Source: a virus (taxonomy: Duplodnaviria; Caudoviricetes). From it: a DNA stretch of 53,232 bases. The stretch spans positions 1 through 53,232 of IMG/VR virus record IMGVR_UViG_3300044615_001001. One strand, written 5' to 3'. Position numbers and translations under genes: made by a program. The notes below the pieces were generated by a model. That model saw only the letters and a program-made list of their open reading frames with translations, ran no database searches and had not been told where the DNA came from. Positions 47,843 through 52,651 of this stretch are shown here, piece by piece (within the stretch, counting starts at the first letter, position 1; every line of letters begins with the position of its first letter).

Positions 47843-49363
47843 TCAGCGCGTGGTCTCGAAGAGGTGCGGGTGCTTTGCCTGCGCTCGACGCAGTGCGGTG
47901 GCCCTGACCTCGTTGGGGCCGTACTTCGGGAACTCCCGACGCACGCCCTCCTCCTCGGCGGCGCGAGCCTCCGAGACGGTCTGCGGAACGCTCGCGTCCG
48001 CGCGCGCGTGACGCGAGAACACATCGCCAGTCGGCACGGTGGACGAGCGGAGCGCGTTGACGATCATCCGCTCACGGACGGCCGTGTCCTGGATTGCCAG
48101 CGTGTCGGCGACGAGCTGCTCGAGCTGCTCGCCGCTCAACGTGGCCTTGGCCTCGACGGCGCGGCGCTGGATGGCCTCGCGCGTGTCGCGCTTGGCGACC
48201 TCGGCGCGCAGACTGGCCACCTCGGCGCGCAGCGCGGGGAGAGCCGTGAGCGCGGCGCGGGCCGCAGTCGCGTCCTGCTGCGACATCGCCGCAGCGTCCG
48301 CGCCAGCATCGGCCGCGGGAGCGCCCTGGCCGAGCGCGCCCTTGAACGCCGCGAGCGACGCCGTGAAGAGGTCGAGCAGCTCACTCGGCGACGCCTCGGG
48401 CTTGCCGAAGAGATCCTGCATGCCGCCGACGACGCTCGACGCGAACGCCTCGAGCGCGGCCTGGTCCTCGAGACCGGGCACCGCCCGCCTGACGGGCGCG
48501 TCGGCTGGAGTCTTCTGCTCGGGCGGAGTCGTGGCGGACATGGCTTCCGCGGGCGGCGGCGCAGCCGGATTGCCGGCCTGCTCCAGAGCCTTCTCGGTCT
48601 TCGCCGCGCTCTTGATCGCCGCGAGCGCGTCCATCACGGGAGACGCGTAGGACTCGGCGCTCATCTCGTCCTCGACGCTCACGCCGAGCGTGGCTGCGAT
48701 CTTGGCGAGCAGGTCGAGAGCAGGGCCGCGAGCGTGCTTCTTGTCGGACATCGTGAGCCTCATCGATCGGAAGTGGATGCCCGCAGTCGCGCGGACGGAG
48801 TTGTTGGGTGCCAGTCCCTCGACAGCCGGAACGTTGGTCAGCGCGTGCTGGAGGAGTCGGCCGTCAGACGAGAAGCCGATCGACCCGTAGGCGAGGCGAC
48901 CAGAGTCGATGTCGCGCGCCACGTCGGGCGAGGTCTCGGCGTAGACGTAGAGATGCCAGCGGCCGGCGCGGTCCTGCACCTCGACGCCCGTGTGCACGTA
49001 GCCGTCAGAGCGCGTCTCGGTCGCGCTCAGCTGCGAGTGCGCGGGTGACGTGCCGCCATCCATCGGCGCAGGGCTGCCCGCGTTGAGGCGCGCAGCCATC
49101 GTCGCGATGAGGTCGCGAGTGACCTGCGAGCCATCGGGCGCGGGCGCGCTCTCCTCGGCCGTCGCATCAAGCCAGCGCCACTGACCGTTCTCGCGGCCCG
49201 ACTCGTCGCGCAGGATGCCGCGCTTCGGGCGGTAGTCGTTGTCGCTCAGCAGCGAGTCGAGCGCGGCGCGAAGCGTGGGATACGCCTCGCCAGCGTCGGC
49301 GTCGCGAAGGCGCACCTCTGCTCCGCCCTTGGTCTCGACGACGACGAGCGGGAGAGTGGGCAT
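47843..49363 (-). CDS. Mu-like prohead protease/scaffold
   Basis: YGSIGF...HALTNVPAVEGL followed by an Ala-rich helical scaffold region. Confidence 0.8.
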   Translation of the reverse strand: MPTLPLVVVETKGGAEVRLRDADAGEAYPTLRAALDSLLSDNDYRPKRGILRDESGRENGQWRWLDATAEESAPAPDGSQVTRDLIATMAARLNAGSPAPMDGGTSPAHSQLSATETRSDGYVHTGVEVQDRAGRWHLYVYAETSPDVARDIDSGRLAYGSIGFSSDGRLLQHALTNVPAVEGLAPNNSVRATAGIHFRSMRLTMSDKKHARGPALDLLAKIAATLGVSVEDEMSAESYASPVMDALAAIKSAAKTEKALEQAGNPAAPPPAEAMSATTPPEQKTPADAPVRRAVPGLEDQAALEAFASSVVGGMQDLFGKPEASPSELLDLFTASLAAFKGALGQGAPAADAGADAAAMSQQDATAARAALTALPALRAEVASLRAEVAKRDTREAIQRRAVEAKATLSGEQLEQLVADTLAIQDTAVRERMIVNALRSSTVPTGDVFSRHARADASVPQTVSEARAAEEEGVRREFPKYGPNEVRATALRRAQAKHPHLFETTR

Positions 49364-49502
49364 GTGCACCTCAAGCGATTGCGGAGACGGGAATTGCACC
49401 CGTGCGTGGCCGGCTTATGAGGCCGGTGCGTTGCTACTTCGCCACTCCGCGATAGGCCGCCGAGATTACGGATGCGCGAGCGCAGAGCCGTCGGCGGGCT
49501 TG

Positions 49503-51176
49503 TCAGTCAGCGAGCGGGCCGGGAGCGGACTCCCAGCCAGCATCCGGCGTCACGCCAGCGATGCGGCCCTCGGTGAGCATGTAGCCGCGCGCCTCGAACT
49601 GCCTCGCGCTGATCGTGGTCAGCGAGCAACGACAGTTGCTCGTGATGATTCCGTTCGCCCCTATCCAGCTGAAAGGCGACTGGAGGTCGAACACATGTCC
49701 AGAGAACGAATGGCGCTTGACGCTGACTACCTTGTCCGTGCCTACGAGGCCGGAGCCTCTGAGAAGAAGCTCGCTGACGAACTTGGCGTCTCGCGCAGTG
49801 CCATCAGGCGCAGACTGGTCGCGCGCAACGTGAAGCCGCGAGGCCGCTCCGAAGCGGAGCTGCTGAAGTGGTCCGCCATCAAGCGAGACAGAGCCCTCGT
49901 CGAGCGCCAGTGCGGCAGAGCGTGGAATGCCGCGAGGGGTCGAGTCCACACGCTTGAGGAGCGCGTCGCCAGAGCTGCCAGCGGCGGACGCCTCATCGGC
50001 AAGCACGAGGACACAATCGCCGGTCTGCTCGACGCCGCTGGCTGTGCCGTGGAGCGCCAGTTTGCCTGGGGCCCCTACAACATCGATCTGGCCGCGCATG
50101 AAGCGCGCGTCGCCATCGAAGTCGTTGGGACTCCACCCGTCCACGCTGGCCGAGATAGAGTCCGCGAACGCACCGAATACCTGCTCAATGGCGGCTGGTG
50201 CGTGCTCTTTGTCTACGTTGGTCCACTGTGGGGTCGCCGCACCGTTGAGATCGACGGTGCGTTCGTAACAAACGAGATCGTCTCCCTCGTGGAGAGAGCC
50301 CGCCGCAACGAACCCGTTCACGGTTGCTATCGGGTGATTCGGGGTGACGGGGAGCCGACGGCCATGCTCCGTAAGTACCTCAACAATCTCCCCGTCGTAC
50401 CAAGCGCGGTAGGCGCCGTCGAAGGTGCCCTCAACGACAACGCCTGACGGGAAGCATCGGAAGCCGAGCGGGGGCGCGTAGTACGCGGCCTCGTCGGTGC
50501 CCTGCCGGAACACGCGGCCGTGAAGCGCGCGGTGCATCGGCCGGACGGCCTCGTCGCCAGCGGTCACGTAGCGAAGGAAGGGGCGCAGCGCGGCGACGTC
50601 GGGATCGTTGACGGCCTGCCATCGGCCAGCGCCGTACGACGTCGCGACGTTCGTTCGCACGACGGTCTCGAGGTAGTGCGGACTCGCGGGCGCGATGCCC
50701 ATCGCTCGCACCTCGTCACGCTCCGCAGCGCGGATCGCCTCGTACACCTCGTCGGTGGTGAGGTCTTGCTCGAGAAGCCGCGCGATGCTTGTGCGTGCCA
50801 CTTCGCGCAGACGCTCTGTCGCGAGACGCCGCGCCACGAAGCCACCTTCACGGTAGCGGTCACGCAGCGCGTCGAACTCCTCTTCGGAGATCAGCCGCTT
50901 CGCGCGGAAGAACGCAACCGCGTCGTCGAACGGCATCGCCAAGAACGGCGACTCACGGCGCGAGGTGACGGCGCGTGCTGCGCTGTCGCTGTCCTCTGCG
51001 AGCTCGACCTCACGCACCATCAACTGGCCGCCGAGCGCCGCTTGAAACGACGTGCGGTAGAGCAGGCCCGCGAGCCTGTCGTCGGTCTGGAGCTGGTCGG
51101 CCCAGCGGGCCACCACCTCGTCGATGTCACTCGGACCACGCAGCGAGCGCGCGTGCGCCGCGAGCAGGTCGAGCAT
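49503..51176 (-). CDS. MuF (gpF/gp7-like) minor head protein interrupted by an intein; 5' end may come from a portal frameshift at 51323
   Basis: LETVVRTNVATSYGAGRW, D..VRPMH..LHG, PPLGFR|intein|CRC. Confidence 0.88.
   Translation of the reverse strand: MLDLLAAHARSLRGPSDIDEVVARWADQLQTDDRLAGLLYRTSFQAALGGQLMVREVELAEDSDSAARAVTSRRESPFLAMPFDDAVAFFRAKRLISEEEFDALRDRYREGGFVARRLATERLREVARTSIARLLEQDLTTDEVYEAIRAAERDEVRAMGIAPASPHYLETVVRTNVATSYGAGRWQAVNDPDVAALRPFLRYVTAGDEAVRPMHRALHGRVFRQGTDEAAYYAPPLGFRCFPSGVVVEGTFDGAYRAWYDGEIVEVLTEHGRRLPVTPNHPIATVNGFVAAGSLHEGDDLVCYERTVDLNGAATPQWTNVDKEHAPAAIEQVFGAFADSISASVDGWSPNDFDGDARFMRGQIDVVGAPGKLALHGTASGVEQTGDCVLVLADEASAAGSSGDALLKRVDSTPRGIPRSAALALDEGSVSLDGGPLQQLRFGAASRLHVARDQSAPDGTARDAKFVSELLLRGSGLVGTDKVVSVKRHSFSGHVFDLQSPFSWIGANGIITSNCRCSLTTISARQFEARGYMLTEGRIAGVTPDAGWESAPGPLAD
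49635..50456 (-). mobile_element. Intein (274 aa) in MuF
   Basis: Cys1 (CFPSG), block B TPNHP, block F HVFDL, terminal IITSN followed by extein Cys; removal restores PPLGFRCRC. Confidence 0.88.
49695..50447 (+). CDS. HTH + DUF559/Vsr-like PD-(D/E)xK endonuclease encoded antisense inside the intein
   Basis: GGAGGT RBS 7 nt before the ATG; YEAGASEKKLADELGVSRSAIRRRL (HTH); QFAWGPYNIDLA...VAIEV.G...H...R..YL..GGWCVL. Confidence 0.78.
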   Translation: MSRERMALDADYLVRAYEAGASEKKLADELGVSRSAIRRRLVARNVKPRGRSEAELLKWSAIKRDRALVERQCGRAWNAARGRVHTLEERVARAASGGRLIGKHEDTIAGLLDAAGCAVERQFAWGPYNIDLAAHEARVAIEVVGTPPVHAGRDRVRERTEYLLNGGWCVLFVYVGPLWGRRTVEIDGAFVTNEIVSLVERARRNEPVHGCYRVIRGDGEPTAMLRKYLNNLPVVPSAVGAVEGALNDNA

Positions 51177-51217
51177 CGAGCGGCCGAGAGACGCGCTCTC
51201 GAGGAGCGCCTCAGCGG

Positions 51218-52651
51218 CTAGTGCGCCCGGTCGTCCGACGACTGCCTGAGCAGTCGCGCGAGCGGATGCGTCGAGGTCTGCGACGTCGCCCCACTCGGCG
51301 TCATCGCGGCCCTCGGAAAAGGGACCTCCGCAGACGCACCCCCCGGCGCGCTTGTGGAGGCTGGGAGGGAAAGAGGCGACCCGCTGTACGCGGGCGGAAG
51401 CTGTGGCGCGGCGAACGCGTCGCCGCCGTCGATCGCGTCGTAGCCGTTCGACGTGCGGAGCTCGTTCTTCGTGCAGAGACCGGCCTGGTACTCCGCGACG
51501 CTCCACGGGCGCTGCGCCTGCACTGCCGTCTCGATGACTGGCACGACGGCGCCGGGGCGATTGAAACGCACGAGCGGCGCGAGCCACTGATCGCAGATCG
51601 TCTCGTCGAGCTCGGTGAGGTCGGCCGCGAGGATGTCGCCGCGCACCTGCGCTTGCGCCTGGCTGCCGTACGTCTGCGCGTCCTTGACCTCGATGCTGAG
51701 GTTGCCGCCGAGTAGCGAGACCGCGTACTCCGTGTTGCAGTAGTCCGCGAACAGCTTGTGCAGTTCGGGGTAGAGCGAGACGGGGATCTCGTTGATCTCG
51801 ACGCCCGTGCGGAACGCCGCGCGCCACGTCGAGGACAACTGCCCAAGCTGGTCAACCACCTCGTCAAGCATCGTCGTGGACGTGCTCGGGTCGTTGACCA
51901 CGCCGTACAGCTGCGGCTGGCCGTACCGCTCGATCATCTCGAGCCACCAGCGCAGCCCGAACCGCTTCGCGAGCGCGAGCGCGAGGAGCGGACGCAGCGC
52001 GCCGCGCTTCTGGAGACGTAGATGCACGCCGCCCGTTGGGCTGTGCACGATGAACTTGTGCGGCCACGAGGACAGCGGCTTGCCGTGGCACTCCGCGCCA
52101 GGCTCGTACACGCACAACTCGCCGTACTCATCGACGGAGAGGCGCGTGGGATCGATGGGGCGCGGACGCGAGACGACCCACCCGCGCGAATCGAGCTGCC
52201 AGTCGTGCTCGAGGACGCCGACGCCGCGGAGGATGCCCTGCGCAAGCTCGGCGCGACGACGCGCGAAGCCAGGCGTCTCGTAGAGGATCGTCGAGACCGA
52301 CTGCGCCGTTGCGAGCGCGTCGCGGTCCTGCTCGTAGCCGACCGGTGGGCGCACTGCCCAGCGCCTCGACGTGATCGCGTGAATGCGCGCAGCGGACACG
52401 CCACGAAGGCGCGAGTCACGCACGAGCGCGCCCTCGTAGATGGCCTGTAGCGGCGAGATCGTGCCGACGTCAGCGGAGCGCAGTGCGCTCACGAGCTGCT
52501 GGCCAGCGTTGACCTCGTACTCCATCGGATCGCTGACCTGCCGCGACGTGCGAGGCACGCCGTACACGCGACCGACGGGAGCGCCGCCGCTGAGCGTCAG
52601 CGGGGCGGCTGCCGCGCGCTTGCTCCACGGGAGCCAGTCGGTCCACGCCAT
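51218..52651 (-). CDS. Portal protein (DUF935, Mu gp29-like)
   Basis: RDSRL....AR, KFIVH, WWLEMIERYGQP, YCNTE....LLGGNL, ETICDQWLAPLV.FN. Confidence 0.9.
   Translation of the reverse strand: MAWTDWLPWSKRAAAAPLTLSGGAPVGRVYGVPRTSRQVSDPMEYEVNAGQQLVSALRSADVGTISPLQAIYEGALVRDSRLRGVSAARIHAITSRRWAVRPPVGYEQDRDALATAQSVSTILYETPGFARRRAELAQGILRGVGVLEHDWQLDSRGWVVSRPRPIDPTRLSVDEYGELCVYEPGAECHGKPLSSWPHKFIVHSPTGGVHLRLQKRGALRPLLALALAKRFGLRWWLEMIERYGQPQLYGVVNDPSTSTTMLDEVVDQLGQLSSTWRAAFRTGVEINEIPVSLYPELHKLFADYCNTEYAVSLLGGNLSIEVKDAQTYGSQAQAQVRGDILAADLTELDETICDQWLAPLVRFNRPGAVVPVIETAVQAQRPWSVAEYQAGLCTKNELRTSNGYDAIDGGDAFAAPQLPPAYSGSPLSLPASTSAPGGASAEVPFPRAAMTPSGATSQTSTHPLARLLRQSSDDRAH

What the first reader, a model, noticed from the sequence alone, without database searches (positions are those of the whole stretch)
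49635..50456. Intein whose putative homing endonuclease is a separate gene on the opposite strand (dual-strand-coded mobile intein)
Seen: the MuF frame contains a 274-aa intein (C1 at 50456, TPNH, HVFDL, terminal SN then extein Cys), inserted in the conserved PPxxxxCRC motif. Its central ~170 aa show no LAGLIDADG or HNH motif that I can recognise. The + strand carries a 250-codon ORF (49695..50447) with a GGAGGT RBS at 49682..49687. It lies wholly within the intein, starting 60 nt inside one boundary and ending 9 nt inside the other, in codon-to-codon antisense register. It reads as an N-terminal HTH plus a DUF559/Vsr-like nuclease (Q-x3-PY-x-ID-L, VAIEV, H, GW-x-VL); antisense VAIE is the same DNA as sense FDGD. 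Known: mobile inteins normally carry their endonuclease in-frame between the splicing blocks. Inference: here the nuclease would be expressed independently from an antisense transcript and travel with the intein DNA, while both strands stay stop-free and even blocks B and F are double-coded. That would uncouple homing (needed during replication) from late MuF expression. I know of no description of this architecture but cannot check the literature. Caveats: in-register antisense frames are often open in GC-rich DNA, and the usual EVDG reads EVVG.
Basis: partly seen in the sequence, partly recalled or inferred. Interest (0 to 1): 0.95.

Follow-up and report, generated by a model that had tools for sequence, protein, structure and literature searches.

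The report
Intein with antisense homing-endonuclease gene
A self-splicing protein insert (intein) in this phage's head-assembly gene carries, on the opposite DNA strand and codon against codon, an intact gene for the DNA-cutting enzyme that probably spreads it; the layout is real and kept by selection, but a 2025 preprint already described it.

Summary
Confirmed. The MuF gene (- strand) holds a 274-aa class-1 intein (49635-50456). A 250-codon + strand ORF (49695-50447) lies in exact antisense codon register, with GGAGGT 7 nt before its ATG.

The open frame alone is not significant in this 69.5% GC window (P=0.25). Relatives decide it. In 117 of 118 distinct related loci (GC 0.35-0.71) both frames are open in that register.

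In six independent close pairs, the intein centre evolves as a + strand gene: 141 codon changes silent only in + against 32 silent only in -. The splicing ends evolve as - strand coding (66 v 18; 33 v 9).

The + protein folds (pLDDT 85) as HTH plus a Vsr-like nuclease; the best PDB match is I-Bth0305I. The - strand centre has no fold.

Possibly new details: the start codon is the antisense of the block-F His codon, the ribosome site the antisense of D-L-Q, and a promoter-like -10 sits opposite block G. The window's own copy lacks that -10.

The layout is in print (Gosselin, Arsenault, Gogarten, bioRxiv 10.1101/2025.01.02.630785). This scan has also noted it on many other genomes. Verdict: a new member of a known kind. 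Expression, cleavage and splicing are untested.

The parts
49503..51221 (-). MuF-like minor head (head morphogenesis) gene interrupted by the intein. The true start was not determined; the open frame continues upstream to 51827 and overlaps the portal gene.
   Evidence: ORF list. Pfam Phage_Mu_F 9.4e-11 on residues 170-256 of P0003. PHROG head-protein families.
49635..50456 (-). Class-1 intein, 274 aa: Cys1 (50454-50456), block B TPNH (50334-50345), block F GHVFDLQ, C-terminal Ser-Asn, followed by the extein Cys of CRC.
   Evidence: Translation. Intein_splicing 5.1e-05, below the Pfam cut-off. AlphaFold2 model matches mini-intein/HINT structures 2lqm, 2imz and 1am2 at probability 1.0. Cys1 stands in 104 of 105 ungapped rows and Asn in 87 of 94 ungapped rows of the family alignment.
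50262..50456 (-). N-terminal HINT part (intein residues 1-65). It is also read on the + strand as the C-terminal tail of the endonuclease.
   Evidence: pLDDT 94-98. The - frame is more conserved than the + frame. 66 codon changes are silent only in - against 18 silent only in + (intein residues 1-60). Yet the + frame is kept stop-free over intein residues 26-80 in 75 of 77 loci, against 61.3 stops expected.
49803..50063 (-). Centre of the intein read in the MuF frame (residues 132-218). No predicted fold; it acts as an open, stop-free spacer in this frame.
   Evidence: pLDDT below 50 for most of 132-218. No Pfam family. The - frame is poorly conserved there (identity 0.13-0.34 against 0.24-0.67 for +, residue bins 121-240).
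49635..49784 (-). C-terminal HINT part (residues 225-274, blocks F and G). Its antisense carries the translation start signals of the endonuclease gene.
   Evidence: pLDDT 81-98. 33 codon changes silent only in - against 9 silent only in + (residues 241-274).
49695..50450 (+). Antisense gene for a 250-aa HTH + Vsr-like (PD-(D/E)xK superfamily) putative homing endonuclease (P0001), stop codon included.
   Evidence: In the intein centre 141 codon changes are silent only in + against 32 silent only in -.
49682..49687 (+). Shine-Dalgarno GGAGGT, 7 nt before the ATG. It is the antisense of the block-F codons Asp-Leu-Gln.
   Evidence: Sequence. A GGAG-type site with a 7 or 9 nt spacer was found in 49 of 77 family members, 47 of them at the codon opposite the block-F His. 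The antisense of D-L-Q contains GGAG in 51 of 75.
49695..49697 (+). ATG start codon, the antisense of the CAT codon of the conserved block-F His254.
   Evidence: In 75 family members this His codon is CAT (62) or CAC (13), giving ATG or GTG on the + strand. In the exteins of the same ORFs the ratio is CAT 212 to CAC 379 (Fisher P=6.6e-15).
49722..49823 (+). Helix-turn-helix DNA-binding region of the endonuclease (residues 10-43).
   Evidence: HTH_23 3.4e-4 and other HTH families, all below Pfam cut-offs. Helices 10-18, 23-30 and 34-43 at pLDDT about 90. The family profile matches the tandem-HTH protein 2lvs at 6.5e-05.
50001..50342 (+). Nuclease core (residues 103-216) with family-invariant Tyr128, Asn129, Asp131 (50085-50087), Glu142 (50118-50120) and Trp168.
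   Evidence: Alignment A1. MTES_1575 7.5e-05 and DUF559 6.5e-04. 13 of 14 family members match MTES_1575. Foldseek lists 3r3p and 1cw0. The Vsr alignment places Asp131 at Vsr Asp51 and Glu142 at Vsr Phe62.
49636..49664 (+). Position of the family's promoter-like element (-35 TTGCTn, 17 nt, extended -10 TGnTAnnnT), antisense of block G. In this window -35 reads TTGCTC, but the -10 position reads CCCTAT, so no promoter is recognisable.

Best explanation
This is a mobile intein of the phage MuF (minor head) gene whose homing endonuclease is a separate gene written on the opposite strand, codon against codon.

Shown by the sequence and its relatives: the - strand gives one continuous MuF-intein-MuF frame. 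Only the two ends of the insert (about residues 1-65 and 225-274, the HINT splicing domain) evolve as - strand protein. The middle evolves as a + strand gene for an HTH + Vsr-like nuclease, and in the MuF frame it only has to stay free of stops.

The exact antisense register makes this possible. A stop on one strand is a TTA, CTA or TCA codon on the other, so both frames stay open by avoiding three Leu/Ser codons.

The nuclease gene's translation signals are built into the intein's own conserved blocks. Its ATG is the antisense of the block-F His codon, and its ribosome site is the antisense of Asp-Leu-Gln. In many relatives a -35/extended -10 promoter-like element lies opposite block G. Its last 55 or more codons overlap the N-terminal splicing domain. 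Gene, signals and splicing domain therefore travel as one unit.

Inferred: the MuF precursor is made late and splices to PPLGFR-CRC. The nuclease is made from its own antisense message, binds through its HTH, and cuts intein-less muF alleles of co-infecting or resident phages near the NCRC-coding site. Recombinational repair then copies the intein together with the nuclease gene.
For: Anatomy.

Homology of the + protein:
- 14 relatives at 27-88% identity in alignment A1; two are named 'very-short-patch-repair endonuclease' by their source.
- tblastn matches in 45 phage records (Gordonia 15, Pseudomonas 15, Escherichia 4, Vibrio 3, and others). In all 4 records I opened, the match lies opposite the annotated MuF/head gene.
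- 13 of 14 members match Pfam MTES_1575, 12 of 14 HTH_58.
- The family profile matches Vsr 1cw0 (2.7e-4) and the DUF559-like 3hrl (7.4e-4).
- AlphaFold2 mean pLDDT 85. Foldseek top hits are the I-Bth0305I catalytic domain (probability 1.0, TM 0.61-0.65 on the target); Vsr follows at probability 0.95.

Family architecture: of 166 loci fetched (118 distinct), 117 have the - frame open in register over the whole match, and 117 have the + frame intact through the nuclease core. GC ranges from 0.35 to 0.71.

In low-GC members the - frame of the intein avoids TTA/CTA/TCA. Aaphi23 has 1 against 12.3 expected, and L148 has 3 against 25. Over 69 loci the sum is 119 against 322.7 expected.

Selection in six independent pairs (73-95% nt identity), as codon changes silent only in + versus only in -: centre 141 v 32, residues 61-120 42 v 22, HINT-N 18 v 66, HINT-C 9 v 33. 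The conservation profile over 77 inteins shows the same crossover.

Start signals.

Promoter-like element: at the I/V/L residue 8 positions before the C-terminal Asn (9th from the intein end), NTA codons are used in 36 of 47 cases against 732 of 6149 in exteins (P=5e-24).

The - strand centre has no fold or family.

In print: the same layout is reported for actinophages.
Against: Nothing shows expression, cleavage or splicing. No RNA run holds this sequence.

The window's own copy has no recognisable promoter. The sigma-70 scan found 0 sites. The family's -10 position reads CCCTAT because the - codon there is GGG.

The nuclease active site departs from Vsr and EDxHD:
- The column of Vsr His64 is variable.
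- The column of Vsr Asp97 holds a nearly invariant Arg.
- The presumed general-base His (His150 here) is offset by one residue, and by my reading of the alignment it is missing in three relatives, P0006-P0008.

Foldseek E-values are modest (7e-3), and all Pfam scores for P0001 are below the curated cut-offs.

No close DNA relative of this window was found, so selection was measured on other family members, not on this copy. No intein-less allele of this phage was seen (contigs only).

AlphaFold2 confidence in dual-coded stretches may be inflated, because conservation there can be imposed by the other strand.
Confidence: 0.8

Rival explanations
1. The family is as described, but this window's copy is no longer mobile. 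The endonuclease gene is silent or catalytically weakened, the intein is inherited vertically, and the antisense frame is still open only because too little time has passed or because GC-rich DNA seldom makes stops.
For: No promoter-like site in 49000-50700. The family's -10 (TAnnnT at nt 25-30 of the + strand, present in 32 of 67) reads CCCTAT here. The open frame is not significant in this window by itself (P=0.25). The preprint reports vertical-looking inheritance for several VSR-like groups. One relative, L032, does carry a premature stop, so decay occurs.
Against: The ORF is complete, with ATG, GGAGGT at 7 nt, and every residue that is invariant in the 14-member alignment. 35 of 67 other members also lack TAnnnT at that exact place. 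Promoters of the unknown host may not fit the sigma-70 consensus. The closest protein relative (88% identity, P0004) is also full length.
Confidence: 0.15
2. The antisense ORF is a chance open frame of GC-rich DNA and encodes nothing. Its apparent conservation is only the mirror image of conservation of the intein protein.
For: In-register antisense frames are often open in this window. Some conserved + motifs are mirrors of intein blocks: VIRG of the + protein is the antisense of TPNH (my mapping: intein residue i lies opposite P0001 residue 255-i).
Against: The frame is open in members down to 35-43% GC, where 8-25 stops are expected. In the centre, changes silent only in + outnumber those silent only in - by 141 to 32. 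The protein matches nuclease and HTH families and folds confidently, whereas the - strand centre does not. Start-codon and ribosome-site codon choices are biased against the host's own usage.
Confidence: 0.02
3. The + strand protein, or its antisense transcript, has been taken over for another role, for instance an HTH regulator or an antisense RNA that tunes MuF synthesis, rather than serving as a homing endonuclease.
For: The DNA-binding part is a prominent HTH, doubled in many relatives. The canonical Vsr His/Asp positions are not all kept. An antisense message across a late gene would inevitably interact with its mRNA.
Against: Asp131 and Glu142 of the nuclease core are invariant down to 27% identity. 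In 118 of 118 distinct loci the gene lies inside an in-register - strand frame, never free-standing. All 105 rows that reach the junction show the same insertion site. That is the signature of a homing element.
Confidence: 0.03

Closest known systems
Full inteins with an anti-sense VSR-like homing endonuclease in actinobacteriophages (Gosselin, Arsenault, Gogarten, bioRxiv 10.1101/2025.01.02.630785; I read the abstract, sections 8 and 15, and passages of sections 3, 6, 7, 12, 14 and 28; supplements were closed)
   Different: This copy comes from an uncultured lake-water virus with an unknown host, not from PhagesDB. The family here reaches phages of Pseudomonas, Cronobacter, Vibrio, Escherichia and Aggregatibacter. 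[quoted passage not shown] Here the ORF starts opposite block F and ends 3 codons from Cys1, and the overlap is selected. Start codon, ribosome site and promoter are not discussed in the text I could search: 'start codon', 'ribosom' and 'promoter' gave 0 hits.
Anti-sense LAGLIDADG endonucleases in inteins (Synechocystis DnaX, Chloroflexus SpoVR-like; Gorbalenya 1998 and Gogarten 2002, as cited in the preprint; I did not read those papers)
   Same: The endonuclease is encoded on the strand opposite the intein.
   Different: A different nuclease fold (LAGLIDADG) and different host genes.
'Fractured genes': split inteins with a free-standing Vsr-like endonuclease gene between the halves (Dassa et al. 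2009, PMC2677866; abstract start and search passages seen)
   Same: A Vsr-like endonuclease made as its own polypeptide and associated with an intein.
   Different: There the intein and host gene are split into two ORFs and spliced in trans. Here the intein is one continuous frame that reads through the antisense of the nuclease gene.
I-Bth0305I, prototype of the EDxHD homing endonucleases (Taylor et al. 2011, PMC3239194; section 17 and passages read)
   Same: The best structural match of the nuclease core. A Vsr-derived fold, an acidic residue at the Vsr Phe62 position, and a separate N-terminal DNA-binding region.
   Different: It is encoded in a group I intron on the sense strand and uses NUMOD motifs instead of an HTH. 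The Asp at the Vsr Asp97 position is not matched here, and the His is not kept throughout this family.
Canonical bifunctional inteins (in-frame LAGLIDADG or HNH domain)
   Same: A HINT splicing domain interrupted, at the usual place between the N- and C-terminal blocks, by the DNA that carries the homing function.
   Different: The nuclease is not part of the intein polypeptide. Expression is separate, and about 750 nt are read on both strands.

Membership tests
Class 1 intein (HINT domain) | N-terminal Cys/Ser nucleophile directly after the N-extein | tested here: met
   Cys1 at 50454-50456. Cys stands in 104 and Ser in 1 of the 105 family rows without a gap at that column.
Class 1 intein (HINT domain) | Block B TxxH | tested here: met
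   TPNH at residues 38-41. His41 is invariant, and Thr38 and Asn40 are at least 90% conserved in 48 sequences.
Class 1 intein (HINT domain) | C-terminal Asn followed by Cys/Ser/Thr | tested here: met
   ...ITSN|CRC. Asn274 is invariant in A3. The penultimate residue is Ser rather than the common His; in the family it is Ser in 50 rows and His in 25.
Class 1 intein (HINT domain) | HINT fold | tested here: met
   In the AlphaFold2 model residues 1-65 and 225-274 have pLDDT 81-98. Foldseek gives probability 1.0 to RadA, RecA and GyrA mini-inteins, though E-values are only 5e-3 to 1e-2.
Class 1 intein (HINT domain) | Protein splicing activity | not testable with these tools
   Inferred only: the virus record is rated 100% complete, and the insert sits in the conserved MuF motif.
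Inteins with anti-sense VSR-like endonuclease (Gosselin et al. 2025) | Contiguous intein with a complete endonuclease ORF on the opposite strand inside it | tested here: met
   117 of 118 distinct relatives share it.
Inteins with anti-sense VSR-like endonuclease (Gosselin et al. 2025) | Vsr-like fold of the antisense protein | tested here: met
EDxHD homing endonucleases (I-Bth0305I) | Glu and Asp equivalent to Vsr Glu25 and Asp51 | tested here: met
   Glu105 and the invariant Asp131 align to them in the profile-to-1cw0 alignment. The Vsr residue numbers are my count from His69 and Trp68 as named.
EDxHD homing endonucleases (I-Bth0305I) | His equivalent to Vsr His69 (general base) | tested here: inconclusive
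   His150 is present here with a one-residue offset. By my reading of alignment A1, P0006, P0007 and P0008 lack a His there.
EDxHD homing endonucleases (I-Bth0305I) | Asp equivalent to Vsr Asp97 / I-Bth0305I Asp222 | tested here: not met
   By my count the aligned column holds the nearly invariant Arg159. The alignment in that helix is weak, so this is a cautious 'not met'.
EDxHD homing endonucleases (I-Bth0305I) | N-terminal NUMOD DNA-binding motifs | tested here: not met
   The N-terminal region matches HTH families instead.
Pfam DUF559 / MTES_1575 (Vsr-related PD-(D/E)xK) | Score above the curated gathering cut-off | tested here: not met
   For P0001, MTES_1575 scores 23.2 bits against a cut-off of 38.2, and DUF559 scores 20.0 against 20.6. 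At E<=0.01, 13 of 14 relatives match MTES_1575 (best 2.1e-10) and 5 of 14 match DUF559.
Fractured genes (split intein + free-standing endonuclease) | Host gene and intein split into two separately translated halves | tested here: not met
   One uninterrupted - strand frame runs across the whole insert.

The most novel reading that the evidence does not exclude
In this very widespread MuF-intein family the endonuclease is not just lodged in the intein's spacer. Its whole expression cassette is written in the antisense of the splicing blocks themselves: the -35 and extended -10 opposite block G, the ribosome site opposite Asp-Leu-Gln, and the start codon opposite the block-F His. Its C-terminal 55 or more residues lie opposite blocks A, N2 and B. 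The two proteins therefore cannot evolve or move apart. This is an obligately dual-coded, self-contained homing module that spans phages of Proteobacteria and Actinobacteria, and its nuclease is a distinct HTH-Vsr subfamily with an altered active site. I found none of these details in the text of the one paper that describes the layout.
Probability: 0.55. Interest if true: 0.5.

Novelty: new member of a known kind. Interest (0 to 1): 0.3.

Why it matters
The case shows how a selfish element can pack two interdependent proteins into one stretch of DNA. About 750 nt are read on both strands, with selection switching from one strand to the other along the element.

In practice, the antisense nuclease gene is unannotated in the four phage records I opened. 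Genome annotators therefore miss a gene, and may mistake the intein's middle for a domain of unknown function.

For intein biology, it supports the view that splicing domains were invaded repeatedly by free-standing endonuclease genes.

For this window it adds little that is new. The layout has been in a preprint since 2025, and this scan has met it on many other genomes.

Tried and rejected
Chance open frame: tested and rejected at family level. The window alone cannot reject it (P=0.25).

GC by codon position in the window: only a weak lean to the + frame in the centre (+GC3 0.73-0.87 against +GC1 0.63-0.77). Both frames of the intein have GC3 near 0.72, against 0.85-0.88 in neighbouring genes. 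This is suggestive, not decisive.

In-frame endonuclease in the MuF frame: rejected.

Close DNA relatives of this window, wanted for a dN/dS on this very copy: none found.
- Genome contigs with the single protein gave 0 relatives.
- Genome contigs with alignment A2 gave 2 distant loci.
- Metagenome contigs and viral contigs gave nothing above 53% and 46% amino-acid identity respectively.
- Selection was therefore measured on six other pairs of the family.

Recent horizontal transfer: intein identity was compared with flanking extein identity in 10 pairs. Two pairs show a more similar intein (L012/L015: 0.85 against 0.64; L012/L093: 0.83 against 0.60), while the others are alike. Dual coding itself slows change, so I draw no conclusion.

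Promoter in the window: the sigma-70 scan found 0 sites in 49000-50700. Cronobacter ES2 (L002) had no site in the right place. Aaphi23 (L001) has CTTACA-16-TATAAT with TG at 2268-2295, just upstream of the ATG.

Expression: no RNA holder was listed for this stretch.

Intein-less allele in the population: Logan contigs of four lake-water runs were laid on 48900-51400. They were fragmented, showed no joints, and no contig bridged the intein. No conclusion.

Boundary finding: my pattern-based boundaries failed for 39 of 118 distinct loci (truncated contigs, longer inserts or deviant motifs), and two more were mis-set and dropped. So the counts rest on 77 inteins, or subsets of 75, 69 or 67 as stated. 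The first alignment-based attempt cut many C-terminal ends too short.

One locus (L110) has the - frame broken inside the match. One (L032) has a premature + stop. Neither was followed up.

The supplements of the preprint were closed. I could not check whether its cluster tables already list non-actinophage members, this virus, or the overlap with the splicing blocks.

Literature searches for earlier descriptions: 'intein + homing endonuclease + opposite strand'; 'intein, MuF, endonuclease, antisense'; 'intein, fractured genes, Vsr'; 'intein, anti-sense, homing endonuclease, minor capsid'; 'intein + EDxHD'; 'intein + Aaphi23'; 'intein, overlapping gene, antisense strand, endonuclease'. Only the 2025 preprint describes this layout. 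Other papers were judged from the search listings only, except PMC8966425 and PMC3556154, whose search passages I read and found irrelevant. PMC2677866 and PMC3239194 were read as cited above.


Full report
WHAT IS THERE. The window is a complete 53,232-bp virus record, rated 100% complete, with 69.5% GC. On the - strand, downstream of the portal gene, lies a MuF-like head-morphogenesis gene (Pfam Phage_Mu_F 9.4e-11). Its frame reads ...YYAPPLGFR|CFPSGVVVEG...VTPNHP...GHVFDLQSPFSWIGANGIITSN|CRCSL....

The 274 residues between the bars (49635-50456) have the marks of a class-1 intein: Cys1, block B TPNH, a C-terminal Asn, and a Cys as the first C-extein residue. Removing them restores the MuF motif PPxxxxCRC. 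Pfam's Intein_splicing model matches across the insert, from residue 18 to 271 (5.1e-05, below the gathering score).

On the + strand an ORF runs from ATG 49695 to 50447, with its stop at 50448-50450 (250 aa, P0001). GGAGGT lies at 49682-49687. The + codons coincide exactly with the - codons, so intein residue i lies opposite P0001 residue 255-i. This mapping is my arithmetic.

IS IT MORE THAN CHANCE? Not on the evidence of this window alone. In this register a + strand stop is a TTA, CTA or TCA codon in the MuF frame. These make up 1.0% of the extein codons here, so 2.7 are expected in 274 codons and 1 is seen (P=0.25). Other long antisense frames are open nearby. The codon-position GC signal is weak. 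The case rests on homology and on relatives.

THE + STRAND PROTEIN IS A REAL PROTEIN FAMILY.
- P0001 gives sub-threshold but coherent Pfam hits: MTES_1575 restriction-endonuclease-like 7.5e-05, DUF559 6.5e-04, and several HTH families.
- The protein database holds 14 relatives, at 27-88% identity in alignment A1. Two are named very-short-patch-repair endonuclease by their source.
- In their alignment Tyr17, Gly20, Arg34, Arg49, Gly116, Tyr128, Asn129, Asp131, Ala133, Ala140, Glu142 and Trp168 are invariant.
- 13 of 14 members match MTES_1575 (best 2.1e-10), 12 match HTH_58 and 5 match DUF559.
- A profile of the family matches the PDB sequences of a tandem-HTH protein (2lvs, 6.5e-05), E. coli Vsr (1cw0, 2.7e-04), a DUF559-like protein (3hrl, 7.4e-04) and, weakly, I-Bth0305I (3r3p, 0.058).
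- AlphaFold2 with the 14-sequence alignment gives mean pLDDT 85. The model has three short helices (10-43), further helices up to residue 114, and an alpha/beta core from 120 to 216.
- Foldseek against the PDB ranks the I-Bth0305I catalytic domain first (E 7e-3, probability 1.0, TM 0.61-0.65 on the target). Vsr is tenth (probability 0.95).

THE - STRAND MIDDLE IS NOT A PROTEIN DOMAIN. AlphaFold2 of the intein with 48 relatives (A3) is confident for residues 1-65 and 225-274 (pLDDT 81-98). It is moderate for 81-130 (75-91) and below 50 for most of 132-218. Foldseek returns only mini-intein/HINT structures at high probability: RadA 2lqm, RecA 2imz and GyrA 1am2. Endonuclease-bearing inteins appear lower in the list, apparently through their HINT parts. 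Pfam finds nothing else.

THE ARCHITECTURE IS A LARGE, OLD FAMILY.
- tblastn of P0001 against 50,697 phage records finds 45 records: Gordonia 15, Pseudomonas 15, Escherichia 4, Vibrio 3, Haemophilus/Aggregatibacter 4, Rhodococcus 2, Mycobacterium 1 and Cronobacter 1.
- I opened four of them: Aaphi23, Cronobacter ES2, Pseudomonas vB_Pae_BR313c and Gordonia Angelicage. In each the match lies opposite the annotated head or MuF gene, both frames are open, and no gene is annotated on the antisense strand.
- Scans of IMG/VR, genome contigs and metagenome contigs added 79, 2 and 80 loci.
- Of the 166 loci in all (the window's own stretch counted in, 118 with distinct DNA in the match), every one has the match in the exact codon register of a - strand frame. 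In 117 of 118 that frame is open across the whole match; the exception is L110.
- The + frame has no stop before its natural end in 117 of 118; L032 has a premature stop.
- In the 105 rows that reach the N-terminal junction, the first intein residue is Cys (104) or Ser (1). The extein residue before it is most often Asn (75). In the 94 rows with a residue at the last intein column it is Asn in 87, and the +1 residue is Cys in 86 of 93. The insertion site is therefore the same MuF N|CRC motif throughout.

LOW-GC MEMBERS SHOW THAT BOTH FRAMES ARE KEPT OPEN. The count of TTA/CTA/TCA in the - frame of the intein is far below what the extein's usage predicts. Aaphi23 (43% GC) has 1 against 12.3 expected (P=5e-05). 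L148 has 3 against 25.0 (P=2e-08). L060 has 3 against 16.4. Summed over 69 loci with enough extein, 119 are seen against 322.7 expected, and at least one per locus is the nuclease gene's own stop.

WHICH STRAND IS SELECTED, AND WHERE. For 77 inteins with boundaries set by pattern, I compared conservation of the two translations column by column.
- The - frame is the better conserved at intein residues 1-60 (mean pairwise identity 0.36-0.62 against 0.17-0.41) and at 241-274 (0.44-0.50 against 0.28-0.33).
- The + frame is the better conserved at 121-240 (0.24-0.67 against 0.13-0.34).
- The result is the same whether the alignment is built from the - or the + proteins.

Six independent pairs at 73-95% nucleotide identity give the same picture without depending on distant alignment. 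In the centre (121-240), substitutions fall mostly on + position 3 (248, against 152 on + position 1), and 141 changed codons are silent only in + against 32 silent only in -. In residues 61-120 the counts are 42 against 22. In the N-terminal splicing part (1-60) they are 18 against 66, and in the C-terminal part (241-274) 9 against 33. Selection thus switches strand along the element.

THE NUCLEASE GENE REACHES INTO THE SPLICING DOMAIN AT BOTH ENDS.
(a) Its start. In 74 of 75 family members the conserved His of block F (GHVYDLQ) lies 20 or 21 residues before the C-terminal Asn. Its codon is always CAT (62) or CAC (13), which reads ATG or GTG on the + strand. In the exteins of the same ORFs, His is CAT 212 times and CAC 379 times (Fisher P=6.6e-15). 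In loci with GC of 0.60 or more the counts are 31:11 against 112:286 (P=9e-09).

The three codons for Asp-Leu-Gln that follow give CTGGAGGTC or close variants on the + strand. GGAG is present in 51 of 75. A GGAG-type site with a 7 or 9 nt spacer was found in 49 of 77, 47 of them at the codon opposite the block-F His. The window has CAT/ATG and GGAGGT with 7 nt between them.

(b) Its promoter. In the 60 nt between the intein's C-terminal boundary and the start codon, many members read TTGCTn, then 17 nt, then TGnTAnnnT (for example TGCTATAAT).
- TAnnnT stands at nt 25-30 in 32 of 67 members, and TG at nt 22-23 in 33 of 67.
- Sites passing the scan tool's sigma-70 criterion cluster in the first 30 nt: 18 sites, against at most 5 in any other 30-nt bin of the inteins. 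12 of 67 have such a site with its -35 starting at nt 1-3.
- The - strand codon opposite the first two -10 bases, an Ile/Val/Leu residue, is an NTA codon in 36 of 47 cases, against 732 of 6149 in exteins (P=5e-24). In loci with GC of 0.58 or more the counts are 24 of 31 against 193 of 3744 (P=9e-25).
- In Aaphi23 the scan tool itself reports CTTACA-16-TATAAT with an upstream TG at that place.
- The window does not fit. Its -35 reads TTGCTC, but the -10 position reads CCCTAT because the - codon is GGG. The scan finds no promoter in 49000-50700.

(c) Its end. The stop codon lies opposite intein residues 2-29, most often residue 16 (40 of 77); in the window it is residue 4. Intein residues 26-80 carry a TTA, CTA or TCA in only 2 of 77 loci, and in both that codon is the stop itself. 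From extein usage 61.3 are expected (about 1e-27). So the + frame is kept open through blocks N2 and B even though - strand selection dominates there. The last 55 or more residues of the nuclease, including helix 188-203 and strand 212-216 of the model, appear to be needed.

Part of their apparent conservation is a mirror image: VIRG of the nuclease is the antisense of TPNH. The same holds the other way round for DFDGD of the intein, which lies opposite RVAIE with the catalytic Glu142. I cannot say from sequence alone whether intein residues 81-130 (pLDDT 75-91) are a true part of the HINT fold or owe their confidence to that mirroring.

HOW IT MOST LIKELY WORKS.
- Shown: two overlapping, oppositely oriented coding sequences, each under purifying selection in its own part. 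Shown also: a HINT fold at the ends of one, and an HTH plus Vsr-like nuclease fold for the other.
- Inferred: the MuF precursor splices. The nuclease is made from its own message, independently of late MuF expression, and cuts intein-less muF alleles near the NCRC-coding site. Repair then copies the whole module.
- The exact antisense register is the one in which stops on one strand correspond to only three sense codons on the other, all Leu or Ser and replaceable by synonyms. This explains why the register is universal in the family.

ACTIVE SITE. I aligned the family profile to Vsr and read the residue roles from the I-Bth0305I paper.
- Asp131 corresponds to Vsr Asp51, the essential metal ligand.
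- Glu105 corresponds to Glu25.
- Glu142 falls at the Phe62 position, where the EDxHD family has a conserved acidic residue.
- The His64 column is variable.
- His150 can stand for His69 only with a one-residue offset, and by my reading of alignment A1 it is missing in P0006, P0007 and P0008.
- The Asp97 column holds a nearly invariant Arg.

I therefore call the protein Vsr-like within the PD-(D/E)xK superfamily, closest in structure to I-Bth0305I, but I do not file it as an EDxHD member.

WHAT IS KNOWN. Gosselin, Arsenault and Gogarten surveyed PhagesDB (bioRxiv 10.1101/2025.01.02.630785, version dated 2025-10-20). [quoted passage not shown] Minor capsid proteins are among the hosts, and those carry only non-canonical inteins. 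Their predicted structures match Vsr (1CW0) and, by HHpred, 3R3P, with no recognisable structure for the in-frame middle.

They cite anti-sense LAGLIDADG endonucleases in inteins back to Gorbalenya 1998, and Vsr-like endonucleases with split inteins to Dassa et al. 2009 (PMC2677866). The architecture is therefore known, and this window is one more member.

Their text does not mention the start codon, ribosome site or promoter; those terms gave 0 hits. [quoted passage not shown] I could not see their supplements. Seven literature searches found no other description.

Earlier notes of this scan record the same layout on many other genomes: 218 notes in at least 167 genomes hold all five search words, and the 8 shown all describe this layout. 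Several cite the same preprint, and one notes a promoter opposite blocks F/G.

VERDICT. Novelty: a new member of a known kind.
- Confidence that this is a functional-type intein with an antisense homing-endonuclease gene: 0.8.
- The main reservation concerns this particular copy. It has no recognisable promoter, and no close relative was available to measure selection on it (0.15 that it is no longer mobile).
- Interest: 0.3.

Noticed in passing
window 51218-51827: The MuF open frame continues upstream to 51827 and overlaps the 3' part of the portal gene (51218-52651). The real MuF start is unclear.
   Followed up: no
window 49239-49694 (+): The + frame of the endonuclease gene stays open for another 152 codons upstream, back to a TTG at 49239, across the MuF C-extein and beyond. 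I take this as a GC-rich open frame and not as coding. The family's start is fixed at the codon opposite the block-F His.
   Followed up: partly
L001 2268-2295 (Haemophilus phage Aaphi23, AJ560763.1): A promoter-like site, CTTACA-16-TATAAT with an upstream TG (10 of 12), lies inside the last 20 codons of the MuF intein on the antisense strand, just before the unannotated endonuclease ORF. The ORF's ATG stands 60 nt inside the intein's C-terminal boundary.
   Followed up: partly
L032 (IMG/VR) and L110 (metagenome contig): These are the only exceptions among 118 distinct loci. L032 has a premature stop in the endonuclease frame (match position 168 of 221). L110 has the intein frame broken inside the match. 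They may be decaying copies or assembly errors.
   Followed up: no
family loci: Intein lengths fall into two groups, about 267-288 aa and about 300-329 aa, with a few up to 391 aa. In the protein alignment the longer endonucleases carry a second N-terminal HTH repeat. The window has the short, single-HTH form.
   Followed up: partly
L012 versus L015 and L093: The inteins are 83-85% identical in DNA, while 450 nt of N-extein are only 60-64% identical. This could mean recent transfer, or simply slower change of dual-coded DNA.
   Followed up: partly
window 49635-50456: GC3 of the intein is about 0.72 in either frame, against 0.85-0.88 in the neighbouring MuF extein, portal gene and the 47843-49399 gene. 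This fits either foreign origin or the double coding constraint.
   Followed up: partly
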